Position numbers and translations under genes: made by a program
Shown here: piece after piece, positions 19,236 to 25,484 of the stretch
How the letters are laid out: each line of letters opens with the position of its first letter
Numbering within the stretch: position 1 is the stretch's first letter
The notes under the pieces: generated by a model
Databases searched by the model: none
Seen by the model: the letters and a program-made list of their open reading frames with translations, nothing else
What the model was told of the DNA's origin: nothing
DNA from: Sinimarinibacterium sp.
Lineage (GTDB): Bacteria > Pseudomonadota > Gammaproteobacteria > Nevskiales > Nevskiaceae
Length of the DNA: 64,000 bases
Assembly: GCA_041659605.1 (NCBI GenBank)
Contig: JBAZXW010000012.1
Span: forward strand, 138-64,137
Reading direction: 5' to 3'

Positions 19236-19450
19236 GAGACTCCCTCGCCACAGCGCTCGCGCCAGAACACCTACGCCGCACGGGCCTGATCGCGCTCATC
19301 GTCGGCAGCTGGCTTACGGCGTTCAATCACGGCGATGCGCTGCTCGCGGGCGCTTGGAGCGCCAAGCTCGCGCTCAAGGTGTTCCTGAACTACCTGACGC
19401 CCTTCGTCGTGGCCAATCTGGGTCTGCTGTCGCGGCACACGACACCCTGA
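19232..19450 (+). CDS. Small membrane protein, NrtS-like
   Basis: ATGA-coupled to pstB; IALIVGSWLTAFNHGDALLAG...NYLTPFVVANLG resembles the NrtS family pattern. Confidence 0.7.
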   Translation: MRDSLATALAPEHLRRTGLIALIVGSWLTAFNHGDALLAGAWSAKLALKVFLNYLTPFVVANLGLLSRHTTP

Positions 19451-21114
19451 TCGGCGGCAGGCGGGGGCAAATAAATCATCCGCCGGGCGGACTGTCGGAC
19501 CGCTCCGTACCAAGGGCTGCCGTTCGCGATCTTGGCGTGGGTGTCGCCGACCGACTCGGAGCGGCAGTTTGAATAGGACCTGCCTTGATTGGAGACCTGA
19601 CTTACAGGCGCGCCTGGACGCGCTCGCAACACCGAGAGCGCAGCCATACTCGCCAGGACCAGCCAGAACAGACTGTCGCCGAAGCGCGCGTACGGCGTCA
19701 GGTCGCTGCGCAGCGGTGCGCGTTGCGCACTGAACGCTGACGTCTCGGCGTCGCCGGCGGCGAGCCACCTGCCGCTCGGCAGCACCATCCCCGCAGATCC
19801 GCCGTTCACCGACCGCAGCAGGCTGCGGCGCAGTTCGACGGCGTGGATCCGCGCCATTGCCAGATCCAGCTCGCCGCCGCGCCAATCGCGAAACAGCGAC
19901 AGGTTCGCCTGCTGCAGCAGCACCTGCGCGCCCGCATTCACGGCGCGGCGCAAGTCGTGGCGGAAGTGGATCTCGTAGCAGATCGCCGCCAGCAGCGGCG
20001 GCAGCTCGGCGGCGGCGATGGGGGAGCCGGCCTCGGCGAGCGGATCCGAAGCTTCCAGCAACGGTCGCTCGATCGCCGGCACCCGCCGCGCCTTGCGCCG
20101 CTCGGCCTGGATGCCTGCCGGCGTCACCAGTCGCGTGGTCAGTATGTCGTCCGCGAGATGGCAGGTGATTAAGAGTGGCGTGTCCAGCTCCGCGGCGAGG
20201 CGCTGCGCCGCGATGCAGCTGCGATCCGGCAGGCGTGTCACGCGCGGCGTCTCCGGCCACAGCACCAGCGCGACGTCGGGGTTCGCCGCCACCCCGGCGC
20301 GCGTCAGCTCGATCGCCGAGCGCGGCGCCGACAGGCCGAGGTCGCGGGTCAGCATCGCGTCCGGGGTTCCGCTGGGCCATTGCGCCTGCAGCGTCAATAC
20401 CGTCAACCGCTCGCTGGGCTCGGAGTCGACCTGCGGGAGGCGCCAGACGCCGTAACCGAGCGCGAGCGCCGCCGGCACCAGCACCGCGAGCACCGCGCCG
20501 CGGTTGCCGGCGCCGGGCCAGCACTGCGCCAGCCCCGCGTTGAGCGTCAGCAGCAAGCCGAGCAGCAGCGGCTCACCGCCGATCTCGGCCAGTTGCGTCA
20601 GCAGCGGCCAGCGCGAAATCAGCACCGCCGGCGTGTACATGAAGACCTGCGGGCAGCACAGGATCGCGCTGGCTAAGCCGAAGCCCGCGATCCATGGCGC
20701 AATTGCGCCGCGCTGCAGGCGCGGCAGCGCGCACCACAGCGCGCCGAACAGCGCGAACGGCGCCGCGACCGCGCCGAACAGCACCGCCAGCTCCAGGTCG
20801 CCGCGCCACGACGGGTGCACCGAAGTCACCGCGTGGTAGAACGGCGGGAACTTGCCTGGCACGGCGTAGCACAGCCCGGCTACCAGCCCCCACGCCGTCG
20901 CCGCCCGTGGGCGCAACCCGCGCAGGCACAGGAAGTACGGCGTCAGCGCCAGCACCGCGAATACCGGCTGGTCGCCGAGCCCGGGCGTCGCCGCCCAGAC
21001 CAGCAGCGCCGTCAGCATGCAGCAGGCGCTGCGCGCGGCCGCGGCGTGCATCCAATGCAGCGCCGCCGCGGGGATGACGATGCCAGCCGTCGAGGCGATC
21101 GTTGCGCTGTTCAC
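19390..21114 (-). CDS. Divergent apolipoprotein N-acyltransferase-like protein (membrane domain plus nitrilase fold)
   Basis: Multiple TM helices, then VLWPET (E), RRKARRVPAIE (K), ICYEIHF (C), IHAVELRRSLLRSVNGG; the C-terminal ~60 aa look like read-through. Confidence 0.75.
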   Translation of the reverse strand: MNSATIASTAGIVIPAAALHWMHAAAARSACCMLTALLVWAATPGLGDQPVFAVLALTPYFLCLRGLRPRAATAWGLVAGLCYAVPGKFPPFYHAVTSVHPSWRGDLELAVLFGAVAAPFALFGALWCALPRLQRGAIAPWIAGFGLASAILCCPQVFMYTPAVLISRWPLLTQLAEIGGEPLLLGLLLTLNAGLAQCWPGAGNRGAVLAVLVPAALALGYGVWRLPQVDSEPSERLTVLTLQAQWPSGTPDAMLTRDLGLSAPRSAIELTRAGVAANPDVALVLWPETPRVTRLPDRSCIAAQRLAAELDTPLLITCHLADDILTTRLVTPAGIQAERRKARRVPAIERPLLEASDPLAEAGSPIAAAELPPLLAAICYEIHFRHDLRRAVNAGAQVLLQQANLSLFRDWRGGELDLAMARIHAVELRRSLLRSVNGGSAGMVLPSGRWLAAGDAETSAFSAQRAPLRSDLTPYARFGDSLFWLVLASMAALSVLRARPGAPVSQVSNQGRSYSNCRSESVGDTHAKIANGSPWYGAVRQSARRMIYLPPPAADQGVVCRDSRPRLATTKGVR

Positions 21115-21126
21115 GTTGCTTGCGAC

Positions 21127-22479
21127 CTAGTCGTTGTCGTCGATGCGCACGCGCTCGGCCAGCTGCGCGCCAGGCTTTGCGTTTCTGATGCGACCGAGGC
21201 GCAGGCCCACGTACTCCAGCGGCTCGGCGATCTGGTCGTCGACCAGGGCGAGGGTGACGCTCGCGGTGGTCTGGCCGGGCGCGAAGCTGACGACGCCGCT
21301 CGTCGCGCTGTAGTCGTCGGGGCGGACTGCGGAGCCGCCCAAGCGCAGCGGCACGCTGACTATCGCCTTCGACGGCGCCGACAGCGACAGGTTCACTTGC
21401 ACGTGGGCGCCTTCGACGACGGTGCGATTGGCCGCGTCGGTGAATCGCAGCTCCGGCAGCGGCACGGCGTCACCCCAGGTATAGCCAAGCGACTTGGGCG
21501 GGCCGTAGCCGTATTCGACGACGCCATCGGCATTGGTCCGCGATCCTTCCATCAGCAAAGTCATCGGTAGCGACGCCGCGTCGAACCCGGCAGGCAGCAG
21601 CGGATCGGTGTAGTCGCGGCCCGGCACCCAGTGGCCCTGGGCGATCTGCGGCGCATTTTGGATCGGTTGGAAGCTCTTGAAGTAGAGCACCAGCCAGACG
21701 CTGTCGGGCTGCGTCAGCTCGTAGCCGACCATCGTCGGGTTCACGCGGTCGCCGATCCTCACGGGGACCGAGTAGACGTAGTCGTTGTCGACGTCGCGGA
21801 TGTCGACGATGAGTTCCTGCAGATGGCCGTGGCGATCGGTGGTGTAGCGCAGGTCCGCCAGCGCGCCCTTGAACTCGTAGTCGCTGTAGTCGTGCCCGGC
21901 CTGTATCTCCTCGAACTCGCGGTACAGGACGTAGGGCGCCCAGTGCAGGCGACCGGGCCGCGTGAAGAACGGATCGTCCGCCGCCGGCACGAAGTCCGGA
22001 TCGAGCAGGTACGAGGACAGCAGGCGCGGCACGCCGTCGCCGATGTCCATGAACATCGGCTCGCGCTGCCAGCCGGGGACGGCGTAGTGCGTCGCGTCGA
22101 TCGGCGTCGCCATCAGGCTATAGGCGACGAGCAGCAGGTCCACGTTGCCGGCCCGGAACGGGAAGGTGACCACGCCGTGGACTTCGTCCCAGCTGCCGCC
22201 GAGGGCACCCCTCAGCGTTTCGCCGTCGGGCGGTCGCGCCGTGGTCGCGGCGACGAGCTTGGCCCGGTGCGCCTGGTCGTGATAGGCCGCGTAACCCGGC
22301 GTCGGTCGCTGGCTGGGCTGCTTGAAGGCCAGTTTTGCATCTACTGGTACGCTAGATCCGCCGAGATTGCAGTTGATCGGGGTGGCGCTGCCCGAGGCGC
22401 TGTGCAGGGCGATCAGTCCGGCGACCGCGGCGACCAGGGCGCGGCGTGCGCCAGGCAGGGTAATCGATCGATGCTTCAT
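21127..22479 (-). CDS. Secreted protein with unknown N-terminal domain and C-terminal Calx-beta domain
   Basis: Start MKHRSI at 22479 with GGAGAG RBS and signal peptide; C-terminal DDYSATSGVVSFAPGQTTASVTLALVDDQIAEPLE...RIDDND. Confidence 0.8.
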   Translation of the reverse strand: MKHRSITLPGARRALVAAVAGLIALHSASGSATPINCNLGGSSVPVDAKLAFKQPSQRPTPGYAAYHDQAHRAKLVAATTARPPDGETLRGALGGSWDEVHGVVTFPFRAGNVDLLLVAYSLMATPIDATHYAVPGWQREPMFMDIGDGVPRLLSSYLLDPDFVPAADDPFFTRPGRLHWAPYVLYREFEEIQAGHDYSDYEFKGALADLRYTTDRHGHLQELIVDIRDVDNDYVYSVPVRIGDRVNPTMVGYELTQPDSVWLVLYFKSFQPIQNAPQIAQGHWVPGRDYTDPLLPAGFDAASLPMTLLMEGSRTNADGVVEYGYGPPKSLGYTWGDAVPLPELRFTDAANRTVVEGAHVQVNLSLSAPSKAIVSVPLRLGGSAVRPDDYSATSGVVSFAPGQTTASVTLALVDDQIAEPLEYVGLRLGRIRNAKPGAQLAERVRIDDND

Positions 22480-22527
22480 GTCAGCTCTCCTGTGTGTGTC
22501 TGTTGTACGCGCGACGGCCCGCCGACG

Positions 22528-22547
22528 AATCACGAATTCATGTGATT
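22528..22547. promoter_or_regulatory. 20-bp imperfect palindrome, copy 1 (candidate operator)
   Basis: AATCACGAATTCATGTGATT, about 50 bp upstream of the Calx-beta gene start. Confidence 0.6.
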
Positions 22548-22910
22548 GGGTGCAGCGAACAATCCGACGACCGCGCGGCCGATGGCGCGCGGGCTGCTGT
22601 CCTTCAACAGGCAGCCGTGCGCGCCGGCCGCCAGCGCCGCACGCTGGCGCGGGCAGCTGTCGAAAACGCTCATGACGATGATCCGCGTGCCCGCGCGCAG
22701 CGCTTCCGGGATCAGGTCGCCGCCGTCGCCGTCCGGCAGGCCGAGGTCGAGCAACAGCGCGTCGGGCGTCCGTGCGTCGAGCTCGGCGCGGGCCTGGGCA
22801 CAATTGCCGGCGGTGGCGAGCAGTTGCAGCCCGGGGTCCTCGGCAATCGCTGCCGCGAGGCGCTCGCGTGTGCGGGGATCGTCTTCGACCAGTAGGACGG
22901 TATAGGCCAT
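22530..22910 (-). CDS. Stand-alone REC domain protein (NarL-like, no HTH)
   Basis: VLLVEDD, LLLDLGLPDG, LLKD; clearly similar to the REC of 24819..25484. Confidence 0.75.
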   Translation of the reverse strand: MAYTVLLVEDDPRTRERLAAAIAEDPGLQLLATAGNCAQARAELDARTPDALLLDLGLPDGDGGDLIPEALRAGTRIIVMSVFDSCPRQRAALAAGAHGCLLKDSSPRAIGRAVVGLFAAPNHMNS

Positions 22911-22942
22911 GCGCGCAGTGTCCGCGCGCAGCCACGCCGCGT

Positions 22943-22962
22943 AATCACGAATTCATGTGATT
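22943..22962. promoter_or_regulatory. 20-bp imperfect palindrome, copy 2 (identical to copy 1)
   Basis: AATCACGAATTCATGTGATT, about 33 bp upstream of the REC-only gene start. Confidence 0.6.
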
Positions 22963-22971
22963 CGGGTCGGG

Positions 22972-24813
22972 TTATGACCCGGTGGGCACCCACAGAACGA
23001 TGCGTGTGCCAGGCGAAACCGATTCGAAATCCAGCCGCCCGCCCATCTTCTGCGCGCGCACGCGCATGTTGGACAGGCCATAGCCGCCGGATTCGACTCC
23101 CGCCGGATCGAAGCCCGCGCCGTCGTCGCGCAGCTCGACCCTCACGCCGTTTTCATGCGAGCTCGCGCCGACGCTGAAGGTCTGCGCGCCGGCATGCTTC
23201 ACCGTGTTCGTGAACGCCTCCTGCACCACGCGCATCAGCTGGAGTGTGGCGCCGCGCTCCAGCGCGAGCGACTCCGGCAGGGCCTGCATGTCCCATTCGA
23301 GTGCCAGGCCCGCGTCCTCGGCCAGGCGCGCGATCCGCTCGCGCAAGGTGGCCAGCGCGGCGCGCAGCGTGCCGCTACCCTGGTCGAGCGAATAGATCAT
23401 CAGCCGCAGGTCGTCGAGCGCGCTGCGCAGGGACTGCGCGGCGGCGGAATCCCTTTCCCCCTGCAGGTCGAGGCCCGCAAGGGTGGATACGAGCGTGCCA
23501 CCCAGGCCGTCGTGCATGTCGCGCTGGATGCGCTCGCGCTCGTCGGCGAGCAGGCGCTGCTGCTCGCTGCGCCTGAGCTCCTCGTAGGTGCGCTCCAGCT
23601 CCGCCTGCTTCTGCCGGACGCGGTCGTCGAGCTCGCGGTTGAGCGTTTCCGATTCGCGCAGGGCGCCAAGGAAGCGCGCGATCAGGATCGACGTGAAGAC
23701 GCCGATCCCGAGCCAGATCATGTAGTGGAAGTACTCCCCGTCGAAGGGCGCGAGCAGGCCGTTCTCCATCAACACGTCGCGGCCGCCGGCGGCCAGCAGC
23801 GAAGCCGCCGCGGTCAGCATCCAGACCGAGGACGCCGTGCGCTGCTGCCACGCGTGGCGCACGAACAGCGACACCGGATAGAAGCCGAAGGCGAATGTAA
23901 GCGCCGAGCAGACCGTCACGGCAAGCGTGGAGAAGTTCGCGGGGCTGGCGATTGCCACTGCCGCCATCGCCAGCGCGCCGAGCGCGCTGTACCCGCCCAG
24001 GAAAGCCGCCAGCCGCGGCCGCGACAGGCCGAGGAAGTGCAGACCGAACACGGTGACCGCCGCGATCATCCAGGCACGCGACACGTGGTGCAGCCATTCC
24101 CACCACACCGATGGCAGCGACAGTCCGGTGGAAACCAGGCCCAGGCAATGCAGCACGACCGCCGGCATGGTCAGCGAATACCAAAGGTACACGCGCTCCT
24201 CGCGGCGGCCCCACCACACCGCGAACATCACCAAGCCGAGCACCAGCACGGCCACGATCAGGACGTAGATGGATTGGACGTTGAGGAACTGGCGCAGGTC
24301 GAAATACGGCTGCAGTTGCGCCAGCGGACCGAGATAGACCTGCTGCAAGAAGCCGCTCCCGGACGGCTCAGCGCGCAGCTCCACCGCGATGTCGTTGGCC
24401 CCGCTGCGCAACAACCGCCCCGGGACGCGGAACAGCAGCGGGCGGAAGCTGTAACGCGCCAGCGGCTCCTGCATGCTGCCACCATCGCCGATGCGCTCGC
24501 CGTTGACGTACACGGCGGCGTTCAGGCTCAGGCTCGGGAGGTAGATCACCCACGCCTCGTCCGGCGCCGAGGCGAGTTGCGCGGCAGTCTCGTAGCGCGC
24601 GCCGCGCAGCTCCGGCGCGAACTCGCGCCACTGGTTCGGGAGGACGGTGCTCGGGGACACCAGCACCGCCGGATCGAGGCCGACCAGGGTCCAGCGCCCG
24701 CCGCCTGCAAGCCAGGCGTCCGGCGGCTGGATCCGGTGCAGCCCGACGAGGGTGGCGACGAATCCCAGCCAGGCCAGCAACCCAAGCAGCGAACGCCAGC
24801 CGAGCGAGCTCAC
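22972..24813 (-). CDS. Membrane sensor histidine kinase (periplasmic sugar-binding-like domain, 7TM region, HisKA_3 type)
   Basis: GTG start at 24813; ERERIQRDMHDGLGG H-box, QEAFTNTVKHA, DDGAGFD, GYGLSNMRVRA. Confidence 0.88.
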   Translation of the reverse strand: MSSLGWRSLLGLLAWLGFVATLVGLHRIQPPDAWLAGGGRWTLVGLDPAVLVSPSTVLPNQWREFAPELRGARYETAAQLASAPDEAWVIYLPSLSLNAAVYVNGERIGDGGSMQEPLARYSFRPLLFRVPGRLLRSGANDIAVELRAEPSGSGFLQQVYLGPLAQLQPYFDLRQFLNVQSIYVLIVAVLVLGLVMFAVWWGRREERVYLWYSLTMPAVVLHCLGLVSTGLSLPSVWWEWLHHVSRAWMIAAVTVFGLHFLGLSRPRLAAFLGGYSALGALAMAAVAIASPANFSTLAVTVCSALTFAFGFYPVSLFVRHAWQQRTASSVWMLTAAASLLAAGGRDVLMENGLLAPFDGEYFHYMIWLGIGVFTSILIARFLGALRESETLNRELDDRVRQKQAELERTYEELRRSEQQRLLADERERIQRDMHDGLGGTLVSTLAGLDLQGERDSAAAQSLRSALDDLRLMIYSLDQGSGTLRAALATLRERIARLAEDAGLALEWDMQALPESLALERGATLQLMRVVQEAFTNTVKHAGAQTFSVGASSHENGVRVELRDDGAGFDPAGVESGGYGLSNMRVRAQKMGGRLDFESVSPGTRIVLWVPTGS

Positions 24814-24818
24814 GCTTG

Positions 24819-25484
24819 TTAGTTCCGCGGCCGCGTCAGCAGGCCGCGCTGCTCGGCCTCGCGCACCGCTTTGCCGCGCGAATTGACGGCAAGCTTGTCG
24901 TAGATGTGCTTGATGTGCGTGCCCACCGTATTGATGGAGATGAACAGCCGGGTGGCGATCTCGGCGTAGGAGCAGCCGTCTGCCACCAGTTGCAGGACGC
25001 CGATCTCGCGGGCGGAAAGCTCGTCGACGAGCTTCGCCGCGGGCATCGGCACCAACGCCGGCGCGGCCTGCAGGTGCTTGAGCAGGTAACGCGCGACCGC
25101 GGCACTGATCGGCGAGCCGCCGGCCAGCAGGTCCGCGATGGCGCGCCCGATCTCGCGCTCGCTGGCGTCCTTGAGCAGGTAGCCGCTGGCGCCGGCGCGG
25201 ATCGCCTCGACCACGTGCGCCTCGTCGCCGAACACGGTGATGACCATGCTTCGCGCTTGCGGATGCGCGGCGCATGTCTCGCGGATCAGGTCGGCGCCGG
25301 AGCCGTCCGGCAAACCGAGATCGGTAAGCAGGACATCTGGCGCGACGCGCACCAGCTGGGCGCGCGCTTCAGCACAGCTGCCAACGTCGGCGATGAGGCA
25401 GAGCGCCGGGTTGGCTGCGATCGCGCGCGCCAGCCGGGCGCGGGTTCGCGCATCGTCCTCGACCAGCAAGATCCGGTGCGGCAC
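24819..25484 (-). CDS. NarL/LuxR family response regulator
   Basis: REC plus LSAREIGVLQLVADGCSYAEIATRLFISINTVGTHIKHIYDKL HTH. Confidence 0.93.
   Translation of the reverse strand: MPHRILLVEDDARTRARLARAIAANPALCLIADVGSCAEARAQLVRVAPDVLLTDLGLPDGSGADLIRETCAAHPQARSMVITVFGDEAHVVEAIRAGASGYLLKDASEREIGRAIADLLAGGSPISAAVARYLLKHLQAAPALVPMPAAKLVDELSAREIGVLQLVADGCSYAEIATRLFISINTVGTHIKHIYDKLAVNSRGKAVREAEQRGLLTRPRN

What the first reader, a model, noticed from the sequence alone, without database searches (positions are those of the whole stretch)
22528..22962. Two identical 20-bp palindromes AATCAC-N8-GTGATT bracketing the REC-only gene
Exact copies at 22528..22547 and 22943..22962, each 33-50 bp upstream of a start codon, are AT-rich in a GC-rich background. 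The half-site orientation is opposite to a CRP box. The best candidate binder is the linked NarL-type regulator. Identity even in the spacer could also reflect a recombination or duplication event.
Basis: partly seen in the sequence, partly recalled or inferred. Interest (0 to 1): 0.62.

Follow-up and report, generated by a model that had tools for sequence, protein, structure and literature searches.

The report
Paired regulator boxes flanking a receiver gene
The two identical 20-bp palindromes are real and conserved in every related gene cassette, placed like docking sites for the neighbouring NarL-type regulator at two promoters, one driving a small decoy-like receiver gene and one a secreted-protein gene; this is a new DNA motif of a well-known kind, not a new kind of system.

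Summary
Observation confirmed: AATCACGAATTCATGTGATT lies at 22528-22547 and 22943-22962, exactly 20 bp each, the only two copies in 64 kb. All genes are on the minus strand: NarL-type regulator, 7TMR-DISM/HisKA_3 kinase, box U, REC-only gene, box D (it supplies the REC-only stop codon), secreted Calx-beta protein. Twelve distinct related cassettes from metagenomes all carry exactly two boxes flanking their REC-only gene. Box U is followed at exactly 20 nt by an NANNNT hexamer in 13/13 loci. That hexamer ends 6-7 nt before an ATG with no Shine-Dalgarno in 12 of them, which suggests a box centred near -42.5 and a leaderless mRNA. Box D has its only TATAAT-like peak at the same +20 offset. The arms and the regulator's recognition helix are both nearly invariant. 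Best reading (about 0.68): class-II-type operators of the cassette's own regulator, giving regulator-induced expression of a receiver paralogue (probable negative feedback) and of a variable cargo gene. In 11 of 12 cassettes the boxes are mirror images and co-vary (p about 1e-4); only the window's lineage has them in direct orientation, stably. This co-variation is unexplained. Binding and transcript starts are untested.

The parts
22943..22962 (-). Box U: 20-bp element, read on the coding strand as AATCAC ATGAATTC GTGATT. It starts 9 nt after the kinase stop codon and ends 32 nt before the REC-only ATG. Inferred operator centred near -42.5 of the REC-only promoter.
   Evidence: The same position is kept in all 13 loci that include it.
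22917..22922 (-). -10-like hexamer GACACT, 20 nt after box U and 6 nt before the ATG.
   Evidence: NANNNT at offset +20 in 13/13 loci and at no other offset in 3 or more loci. Assigning it as a promoter element is inference.
22530..22910 (-). REC-only gene (126 aa), 54% identical to the receiver domain of the cassette's regulator. ATG start, no Shine-Dalgarno, probably leaderless. The stop codon TGA lies inside box D.
   Evidence: Pfam Response_reg, E 8e-17; BLASTP against the regulator; orthologues at 55-69% identity.
22528..22547 (-). Box D: identical 20-mer in the same (direct) orientation. It overlaps the last five codons and the stop of the REC-only gene and ends 48 nt before the cargo gene ATG. 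Inferred operator of the cargo promoter.
   Evidence: A box in the equivalent place in all 12 distinct cassettes, mirror-oriented in the other 11.
22502..22507 (-). -10-like hexamer TACAAC, 20 nt after box D, followed by a (CA)n run and the Shine-Dalgarno GGAGAG (22485-22490).
   Evidence: Offset +20 is the only offset with a mean of at least 2.5 matches to TATAAT across the D copies (3.3/6). Most copies lack the -11 A, so this call is weaker.
21127..22479 (-). Cargo gene 1: secreted protein (signal-peptide-like N-terminus) with a Calx-beta domain.
   Evidence: Pfam; sequence. The cargo differs among cassettes.
19390..21114 (-). Cargo gene 2: divergent Lnt-like (apolipoprotein N-acyltransferase / CN_hydrolase) protein, below the family cut-offs.
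22972..24813 (-). Sensor histidine kinase (613 aa from GTG 24813): 7TMR-DISM_7TM, HisKA_3 and HATPase_c domains. The longer 767-aa ORF overlaps the regulator gene and is an overcall.
   Evidence: Pfam; GC3 frame plot; sequence.
24819..25484 (-). NarL/LuxR-type response regulator (REC + GerE HTH), the proposed binder of both boxes. There is no box upstream of its own gene.
   Evidence: Pfam; closest solved structures DevR/DosR, ChrA, VraR, NarL; recognition helix nearly invariant across cassettes; weight-matrix scan.

Best explanation
The two 20-mers are operator boxes for a dimeric DNA-binding protein, most likely the phosphorylated NarL/LuxR-type regulator encoded two genes upstream. Each box sits where a class-II activator sits, centred about 42.5 bp upstream of the inferred transcript start and taking the place of a -35 element. 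Box U drives the REC-only gene, probably as a leaderless mRNA that starts at its ATG. Box D overlaps the end of the REC-only gene and drives the downstream secreted-protein cargo. On this reading, kinase stimulation switches on the cargo together with a stand-alone receiver that is a paralogue of the regulator's own receiver domain. That receiver could drain phosphate from the kinase or titrate the kinase or regulator, giving negative feedback. Shown here: existence, conservation, geometry and restriction of the boxes to this cassette. Inferred: who binds, where transcription starts, and the feedback role.
For: (1) Twelve distinct cassettes (window, L001, L002, L020, L021, L102, L103 with duplicate L104, L105, L106, L107, L108, L109 with duplicate L110) with REC-only proteins only 55-69% identical all carry exactly two boxes flanking the REC-only gene; L111 shows box U before its contig ends. 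(2) The conservation is at nucleotide level. The box is read as N-H-E-F-M-stop in some orthologues and in another frame (S-P-I-H-V-T-T) in others. The conserved unit is exactly 20 bp, with no identity in the flanks. (3) Geometry of box U: an NANNNT hexamer lies at exactly +20 in 13/13 loci. In 12 of the 13 an ATG follows it 6-7 nt later (32-33 nt after the box), always ATG and with no Shine-Dalgarno. In L105 the called start lies 64 nt after the box. (4) Geometry of box D: the only TATAAT-like peak is also at +20 (mean 3.3/6), followed by a 5'UTR of variable length with a Shine-Dalgarno. (5) The arms AATCAC/GTGATT are nearly invariant and dyad-symmetric, and the regulator's recognition helix (NTVGTHIKHIYDK) is nearly invariant too. 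The one cassette with an arm change in both boxes (L103, AATCAT) is the one with a K-to-S change in that helix. (6) Specificity: each locus has exactly two sites at 24-42 bits and nothing else above 8 bits. Eighty loci of more distant NarL-type regulators have no box. Cassettes with a regulator at least 73% identical always have the boxes; the next tier (45-59%) never does. (7) Mobile or toxin-antitoxin genes are inserted between the kinase and box U in three cassettes without disturbing the box-to-ATG unit, so the REC-only gene has its own promoter. (8) Precedent: NarL activates from a site centred at -44.5 (PMC7419079 abstract). From my own knowledge, 20-bp palindromic boxes for this protein family include the lux box at -42.5 and the DosR box. 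(9) The window's direct orientation is stable in two diverged strains, as expected if a symmetric dimer reads the box in either orientation.
Against: There are no binding data and no transcript-start data; no RNA run exists for this organism. The box matches no consensus known to me for the family (NarL heptamer TACYYMT, lux box, DosR box). An arm-to-arm spacing of 14 bp is wider than in typical sites for this family. The asymmetric 8-bp spacer is conserved and the two boxes of a cassette co-vary (p 1.5e-4). A plain symmetric-dimer model does not predict this, and changes in the recognition helix do not explain it except in L103. Most hexamers after box D lack the -11 A. No box precedes the regulator's own gene.
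Confidence: 0.68

Rival explanations
1. The boxes are operators at these two promoters, but they are bound by a different DNA-binding protein, such as a global or unlinked regulator, and not by the cassette's NarL-type regulator.
For: The geometry evidence says nothing about who binds. The box resembles no known NarL-family consensus. The 12-14 bp spacing of the TCAC/GTGA cores is nearer to Crp/Fnr-like geometry, though in the opposite orientation. There is no box at the regulator's own promoter.
Against: The boxes occur only in cassettes that carry this regulator subfamily and never elsewhere in about 500 kb of fetched loci or in the 64-kb window. The invariant arms parallel an invariant recognition helix, and the L103 arm change coincides with a helix substitution.
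Confidence: 0.12
2. The selected feature is RNA. In a read-through transcript the two mirror-image copies pair into a 17-20-bp duplex, or their hairpin loops kiss, looping out the REC-only cistron for processing (for example by RNase III), stabilisation or translational insulation.
For: In 11 of 12 distinct cassettes the copies are reverse complements of each other (15-20 of 20 Watson-Crick pairs, against 8-12 within a copy in most) and they co-vary. In L103 an arm change breaks each copy's own palindrome but keeps complementarity between the copies. The 32 nt upstream of the ATG tend to fold into a hairpin that buries the AUG (mean z -1.75).
Against: The window's lineage has direct copies (12 of 20 pairs) and is stable. 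None of the mismatches between copies is a G-U wobble. The arms are invariant across 55-69% protein divergence instead of drifting with compensation. D copies differ from U copies in systematic ways. The covariation prediction failed in L107. There is no Rfam hit. The local hairpins are not more stable than shuffles.
Confidence: 0.08
3. The copies are core sites for a site-specific recombinase (6-bp inverted arms with an 8-bp asymmetric overlap). They would allow inversion (mirror copies) or excision (direct copies, as in the window) of the REC-only segment, or mark the joint where cargo genes are swapped.
For: The 6-8-6 architecture with a spacer that must match between partner sites would explain the co-variation. 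The cargo genes downstream of box D differ among cassettes. Mobile genes cluster next to box U in three cassettes, including a Y1 transposase in L102.
Against: No recombinase gene belongs to the cassette. The REC-only gene has the same orientation in 12/12 distinct cassettes. Direct repeats persist without deletion in two strains 4-5% diverged, and no excision or inversion joint is seen, although only contigs could be read. The fixed distance to the -10-like hexamers has no role in this model.
Confidence: 0.05
4. The repeat in the window is a functionless scar of a local duplication or insertion, or a member of a genome-wide REP-like family.
For: Exact 20/20 identity in direct orientation looks like a duplication junction. 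The genome-wide copy number could not be checked.
Against: Conservation of both boxes at fixed positions in 12 distinct cassettes. Only two copies in 64 kb and in every locus. No identity extends beyond 20 bp. The 17-mer core occurs in 185,579 species genomes only at chance level and in unrelated contexts.
Confidence: 0.02

Closest known systems
lux box / LuxR-type class-II activator sites (from my own knowledge: a 20-bp imperfect palindrome centred at -42.5 of luxI)
   Same: A 20-bp dyad-symmetric site. The inferred centre is near -42.5, overlapping a missing -35. The candidate binder has the same GerE/LuxR-type HTH.
   Different: Different sequence. The binder here would be a phosphorylation-controlled response regulator, not an autoinducer receptor. 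Two boxes flank one small gene. Binding is untested.
NarL and DevR/DosR operators (NarL 7-2-7 sites, e.g. at -44.5 of ogt, PMC7419079; from my own knowledge, the DosR 20-bp palindromic box)
   Same: The regulator is closest to DevR/DosR, ChrA, VraR and NarL among solved structures. Activation from about -44 is documented for NarL. The kinase has the NarX-type HisKA_3 domain.
   Different: The box does not match TACYYMT heptamers or the DosR consensus. The arms are 14 bp apart centre to centre. The regulator is below the cut-off of every curated equivalog family.
Phosphate-sink or decoy single-domain receivers in two-component systems (e.g. the threshold devices modelled in PMC4214558; kinase sequestration by response regulators in PMC10368727)
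   Same: A stand-alone receiver encoded next to its kinase and paralogous to the cognate regulator (54% identity), with the acidic pocket, acceptor Asp and Lys kept in nearly all orthologues.
   Different: Here the decoy appears to be transcribed from a promoter controlled by the same system, and probably as a leaderless mRNA. Its biochemical role is untested, and one orthologue (P0008) has Asn at the acceptor position. I took only the titles and abstracts of these two papers.
Lambda PRM / cI (from my own knowledge: an activator at about -42 driving a leaderless mRNA)
   Same: The combination of a class-II-positioned operator and a transcript that would begin at the A of the ATG.
   Different: Unrelated proteins and sequence. 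The leaderless start here is inferred only from a -10-like hexamer 6-7 nt upstream of an ATG without a Shine-Dalgarno.
CRP/FNR boxes (TGTGA-N6-TCACA)
   Same: They share the TCAC/GTGA tetranucleotides and dyad symmetry.
   Different: The half-sites face the other way (TCAC-N8-GTGA) with different spacing. No Crp/Fnr gene is part of the cassette.

Membership tests
Operator of a NarL/LuxR-type (GerE HTH) response regulator | Dyad-symmetric site of about 16-20 bp | tested here: met
   AATCAC-N8-GTGATT. The arms are nearly invariant in 24 copies from 13 loci.
Operator of a NarL/LuxR-type (GerE HTH) response regulator | Physically bound by the regulator's HTH dimer | not testable with these tools
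   Only indirect evidence: co-occurrence with the regulator subfamily and invariant arms paired with an invariant recognition helix.
Operator of a NarL/LuxR-type (GerE HTH) response regulator | Match to a described consensus of the family (NarL TACYYMT 7-2-7, lux box, DosR box) | tested here: not met
   By inspection of the 20-mer. A literature word search found no described AATCAC/GTGATT box for a response regulator. It would be a new specificity.
Class-II activator-dependent promoter | Activator site centred about -41.5 to -44.5, overlapping or replacing the -35, at a fixed distance from the -10 | tested here: met
   Box end to hexamer is 20 nt in 13/13 U copies, and the D copies peak at the same offset. 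There is no consensus sigma-70 -35/-10 pair in the region. The transcript start itself was not mapped.
Leaderless mRNA gene | A -10 element 6-7 nt upstream of an AUG start, no Shine-Dalgarno, transcript start at the A of the AUG | tested here: inconclusive
   The sequence features are met in 12 of 13 loci. L105 is the exception; its called start lies 64 nt after the box. Transcript-start mapping was impossible because there are no RNA runs.
CRP/FNR box | TGTGA-N6-TCACA half-site orientation and spacing | tested here: not met
   Orientation reversed and spacer 8 bp.
REP/BIME-like dispersed extragenic palindromes | Many dispersed copies per genome | tested here: inconclusive
   Two copies in 64 kb and two per locus in 12 distinct cassettes, never elsewhere in those loci.
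Tyrosine-recombinase core site pair | Inverted arms around a 6-8-bp asymmetric overlap that is identical in partner sites | tested here: met
   6-8-6 layout. The spacers co-vary within cassettes. This is a formal resemblance only.
Tyrosine-recombinase core site pair | A cognate recombinase, and recombined (inverted or excised) forms in populations | tested here: not met
   No recombinase gene in the cassettes. The REC-only gene has the same orientation in 12/12 distinct cassettes. No credible joints were seen in runs X1 or X2, though only contigs were available.
Long-range RNA duplex / RNase III processing stem | Complementarity kept by compensatory changes, including G-U intermediates, in all members | tested here: not met
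   Complementarity is 15-20 of 20 in 11 cassettes but 12 of 20 in the window. There are no G-U pairs among the mismatches. The L107 prediction failed.

The most novel reading that the evidence does not exclude
The boxes may do two jobs. As DNA they would be operators. In addition, they would be kept as mirror-image, co-evolving repeats because, in read-through transcripts from the kinase gene, they pair (or their loops kiss) and loop out or insulate the REC-only cistron. Only the leaderless transcript from the box-U promoter would then be translated. Under this reading the window's lineage, with direct copies, is a natural variant that has lost the RNA function.
Probability: 0.1. Interest if true: 0.7.

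Novelty: new member of a known kind. Interest (0 to 1): 0.42.

Why it matters
It gives a concrete, testable wiring diagram for an uncharacterised two-component family found so far only in uncultured soil and groundwater bacteria (source names such as Nevskiales and Betaproteobacteria). A 7TMR-DISM kinase and NarL-type regulator would switch on, through two sharply defined 20-bp boxes, a receiver-only paralogue and a swappable secreted-protein cargo. The box, the fixed box-to-hexamer distance and the probable leaderless start make the REC-only gene a clean candidate for a self-induced decoy or phosphate sink. This design has been discussed in theory but rarely has both the cis elements and the decoy so clearly delimited. 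The mirror-image, co-varying boxes are a small unsolved point about how operator pairs evolve. The weight matrix from this work can be used to find the regulon in any genome that carries the cassette.

Tried and rejected

(2) Scan of 185,579 species genomes for the 17-mer core. It gave 17 single hits, of the order I expect by chance (my own arithmetic: about 70 for a random 17-mer in 1.2e12 bases). They are in unrelated, mostly AT-rich taxa. The two proteobacterial hits encode a conserved NHEFMW peptide inside membrane GGDEF proteins and are a coincidence. The window's genome and the cassette family are not in that collection with this exact core.

(3) Metagenome scan with the REC-only alignment. 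It returned 80 loci of more distant NarL-type regulators (52% identity at most), and none has the box. This is useful as a negative control only.

(4) RNA ideas. Local hairpins at the boxes are no more stable than shuffles on the coding strand (z -0.9 and -1.75). There is no Rfam family. A consensus hairpin upstream of the ATG has an unfavourable covariation term in a fixed register, although the locus-specific hairpins are on average more stable than shuffles.

(5) Regulator-operator co-evolution as the cause of the spacer co-variation. Rejected in general, because the recognition helix does not change with the spacer variants; L103 may be an exception.

(6) Sigma-54 or MerR-like promoter readings of the conserved bases. 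Rejected by eye, because the spacings do not fit.

(7) Excision or inversion variants. None was seen, but only assembler contigs were available.

(8) RNA-seq. No run holds the stretch.

(9) Literature. There is no described AATCAC/GTGATT box for a response regulator and no paper on this cassette.

Full report
**1. The observation**

The window holds two exact copies of AATCACGAATTCATGTGATT, at 22528-22547 and 22943-22962. The identity is exactly 20 bp; the neighbouring bases differ.

- With up to two arm mismatches allowed there are still only these two matches in 64 kb.
- A weight matrix built later from all family copies scores them at 41.6 bits and finds nothing else above 8 bits. Shuffled windows reach at most about 15 bits.
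- The boxes are 35% GC in a window of 66% GC.
- An independent Logan assembly of the source sample (groundwater metagenome, run X1) reproduces the stretch with no difference.
- A relative about 95-96% identical in an unrelated soil run (X2) keeps both 20-mers unchanged and in the same orientation, while its flanks carry 3.5-5% substitutions.

**2. Gene context**

GC3 analysis and Pfam place every gene here on the minus strand:

| Feature | Coordinates | Notes |
|---|---|---|
| NarL/LuxR-type response regulator | 25484 to 24819 | REC + GerE HTH |
| Sensor kinase | 24813 (GTG) to 22972 | 7TMR-DISM_7TM, HisKA_3, HATPase_c; the 767-aa ORF is an overcall |
| Box U | 22962 to 22943 | |
| REC-only gene | 22910 to 22530 | 126 aa |
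| Box D | 22547 to 22528 | |
| Secreted Calx-beta protein | 22479 to 21127 | |
| Divergent Lnt-like protein | 21114 to 19390 | |

The REC-only protein is 54% identical to the regulator's own receiver domain. Its stop codon TGA (22532-22530) lies inside box D, so its last residues N-H-M-N-S are box sequence. No curated NCBIfam equivalog reaches its cut-off for any of these proteins. The closest solved relatives of the regulator are DevR/DosR, ChrA, VraR and NarL.

**3. Relatives**

A search with the REC-only protein found a family of stand-alone receivers at 55-69% identity, all from metagenomes or MAGs, with source names such as Nevskiales and Betaproteobacteria. Many of them end in N-H-E-F-M-stop or N-H-Q-F-M-stop, which is the box read in frame. 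Others read the same nucleotides in another frame (S-P-I-H-V-T-T). The nucleotides are therefore what is conserved, not the peptide.

I fetched the DNA around these proteins. This gave 12 distinct cassettes, counting the window, and one more locus (L111) that shows only box U. L104 and L110 duplicate L103 and L109.

- Every cassette has the order regulator, kinase, box, REC-only gene, box, large secreted protein wherever the contig reaches those genes.
- Every cassette has exactly two boxes and no third site.
- Cassettes whose regulator is at least 73% identical to the window's always have the REC-only gene and the boxes.
- The next tier (regulator 45-59% identical, kinase about 30%) has neither.
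- No relative lacks the interval or keeps a single box.

**4. Geometry**

Box U:
- In all 13 loci it is followed at exactly 20 nt by a hexamer with A at position 2 and T at position 6 (GACACT, AACACT, GATGCT, CACACT, CACGCT, TACCCT). No other offset shows this in three or more loci.
- In 12 of the 13 loci an ATG start codon follows 6-7 nt after the hexamer, that is 32-33 nt after the box. It is always ATG and no Shine-Dalgarno precedes it. In L105 the called start lies 64 nt after the box.
- If the hexamer is a -10 element at -12 to -7, the box centre lies at -42.5 and the transcript would begin at the A of the ATG, giving a leaderless mRNA. That step is inference.

Box D:
- Its only TATAAT-like peak is at the same +20 offset (TACAAC in the window; TTTAAT, CGTAAT, CCCAAT, TTTACT, TTCACT, CCAAAT and CGAAAT elsewhere; mean 3.3 of 6 matches).
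- It is followed by a 5'UTR of variable length with a Shine-Dalgarno before the cargo gene.
- Most of these hexamers lack the -11 A, so this promoter call is weaker.

The consensus scan finds no sigma-70 -35/-10 pair and no terminator in the region, as expected for activator-dependent promoters. Three cassettes have mobile or toxin-antitoxin genes inserted between the kinase and box U: a Y1 transposase in L102, an AbiEii pair in L103, and two PIN-type pairs in L107. The box-to-ATG unit is intact in each, which argues that the REC-only gene has its own promoter.

**5. Who binds**

The arms AATCAC/GTGATT are nearly invariant in 24 copies (and the copies added). The regulator's recognition helix (NTVGTHIKHIYDK) is nearly invariant in the seven cassettes where it can be read. 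The one cassette with an arm change in both boxes (L103, AATCAT) also has a K-to-S change in that helix. The boxes occur only together with this regulator subfamily.

Proteins of this family bind 16-20-bp palindromes as dimers, and NarL activates from -44.5 at the ogt promoter (PMC7419079 abstract). From my own knowledge, the lux box is centred at -42.5 and the DosR box is a 20-bp palindrome.

I therefore read the boxes as class-II-type operators of the cassette's own regulator, with confidence about 0.68. A further 0.12 goes to the same operator role with a different binder. No binding or transcript-start data exist, and no RNA run holds the stretch.

**6. Likely logic (inferred)**

The regulator and kinase genes have no box upstream of them. 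When activated, the regulator would switch on two things.

- The cargo. It differs among cassettes: Calx-beta plus Lnt-like in the window; DUF7355, FG-GAP/Calx-beta giants, a Reprolysin-like protease and unknowns elsewhere.
- The REC-only paralogue. It keeps the acidic pocket, the acceptor Asp and the conserved Lys in nearly all orthologues. It could compete for the kinase's phosphoryl groups or titrate the kinase or regulator, giving negative feedback. The threshold and sink designs in PMC4214558 and PMC10368727 are comparable; I took only their titles and abstracts.

**7. What remains unexplained**

Once the copies are oriented, almost all 20 positions are conserved, including the asymmetric spacer. 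The box can be described as two unlike half-sites:
- half-site A: AATCAC-ATGA
- half-site B: AATCAC-GAAT

These are two of the ways of shortening a virtual 22-bp perfect palindrome, AATCACATGAATTCATGTGATT, to 20 bp. L105 uses the third, symmetric way.

In 11 of the 12 distinct cassettes, box U is A-B' and box D is its mirror image, B-A'. Only the window's lineage has A-B' twice. Within a cassette the two boxes match each other better than they match boxes of other cassettes: 17.5 against 16.2 of 20 positions, permutation p 1.5e-4, or 1.7e-3 without L105. Examples are GGAT/GGAT in L002 and L103, CAAT/CAAT in L021, and the L103 arm change.

The co-variation is partial. L020 and L106 break it, and my prediction for L107 failed. 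It is not explained by changes in the recognition helix.

I tested RNA pairing as an explanation and the evidence is against it:
- no G-U pairs among the mismatches
- invariant arms
- systematic differences between U and D copies
- the stable direct arrangement in the window

A recombination-site reading fits the 6-8-6 form. It has no recombinase and no flipped or excised forms, and it gives no role to the fixed promoter distance. Two Nevskiales MAGs each carry two cassettes whose B half-sites differ (L103/L104 against L109/L110). Insulation between paralogous systems is therefore a possible driver, but I could not test it.

**8. The window's peculiarity**

It reflects a flip of the spacer (or of the whole 20-mer) of box D, or its conversion from box U, in this lineage. 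This was a one-off event that evidently does no harm, because it persists in two strains that differ by 4-5%. That fits a symmetric dimer able to read the box in either orientation.

**9. Limits**

- All relatives come from metagenomes, several on short contigs.
- Reads were available only as assembler contigs, which hide rare variants.

**10. Verdict**

This is a new box sequence for a well-known kind of regulator, in a tidy and previously undescribed cassette. The mirror-image, co-varying box pair is an unexplained detail. Interest is moderate.

Noticed in passing
L102:654-1154; L103:2502-3923; L107:39-1437: Mobile or toxin-antitoxin genes sit exactly between the kinase gene and box U in three cassettes: a Y1 transposase in L102, an AbiEii pair in L103, and MazE/PIN plus PIN/Phd pairs in L107. 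This short intergenic spot seems to be a permissive or preferred landing site.
   Followed up: partly
window 19390-22479 compared with L001:6490-8277, L002:3163-6681, L102:1790-5299, L109:696-2327: The gene after box D differs from cassette to cassette: Calx-beta plus Lnt-like, DUF7355, FG-GAP/Calx-beta proteins of about 1170 aa, a Reprolysin-like protease, and unknowns. The regulator-kinase-REC module is conserved. The window's five genes are therefore not a fixed system; the cargo is swappable.
   Followed up: partly
window 22908-22942 and the equivalent 32 nt in L001, L021, L102, L103, L106: The stretch between box U and the ATG tends to fold into a GC-rich hairpin that buries the start codon (mean z -1.75 over 8 loci; L001 z -4.6). 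The window's own hairpin is not significant (z -0.8), and a fixed-register consensus shows no covariation. It could silence translation from read-through transcripts.
   Followed up: partly
P0008 / L108:382-774: One REC-only orthologue has Asn in place of the phospho-acceptor Asp (LLVNLGLPDG). In that lineage the protein cannot act as a phosphate sink and would have to work by binding alone.
   Followed up: no
window 22491-22500: A short (CA)n run lies in the predicted 5'UTR of the Calx-beta gene. It differs by one CA unit in the roughly 95%-identical relative in run X2.
   Followed up: no
window 24813-25275: The 767-aa ORF listed for the kinase overlaps the regulator gene in another frame. 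The GC3 profile shows that the kinase really starts at GTG 24813, 5 nt after the regulator's stop codon (613 aa).
   Followed up: yes
L103/L104 and L109/L110 (assemblies GCA_050740155.1 and GCA_050740175.1): Each of these two Nevskiales MAGs carries two different cassettes of this family. Their boxes differ in the B half-site (AATCATGGAT against AATCACGAAT). Paralogous systems co-exist and may need to be insulated from each other.
   Followed up: partly
L011:3168-3187; L014:4189-4208: The 17-mer core also occurs inside membrane GGDEF (diguanylate cyclase) genes, where it encodes a conserved NHEFMW peptide. This is a coding coincidence unrelated to the cassette.
   Followed up: yes
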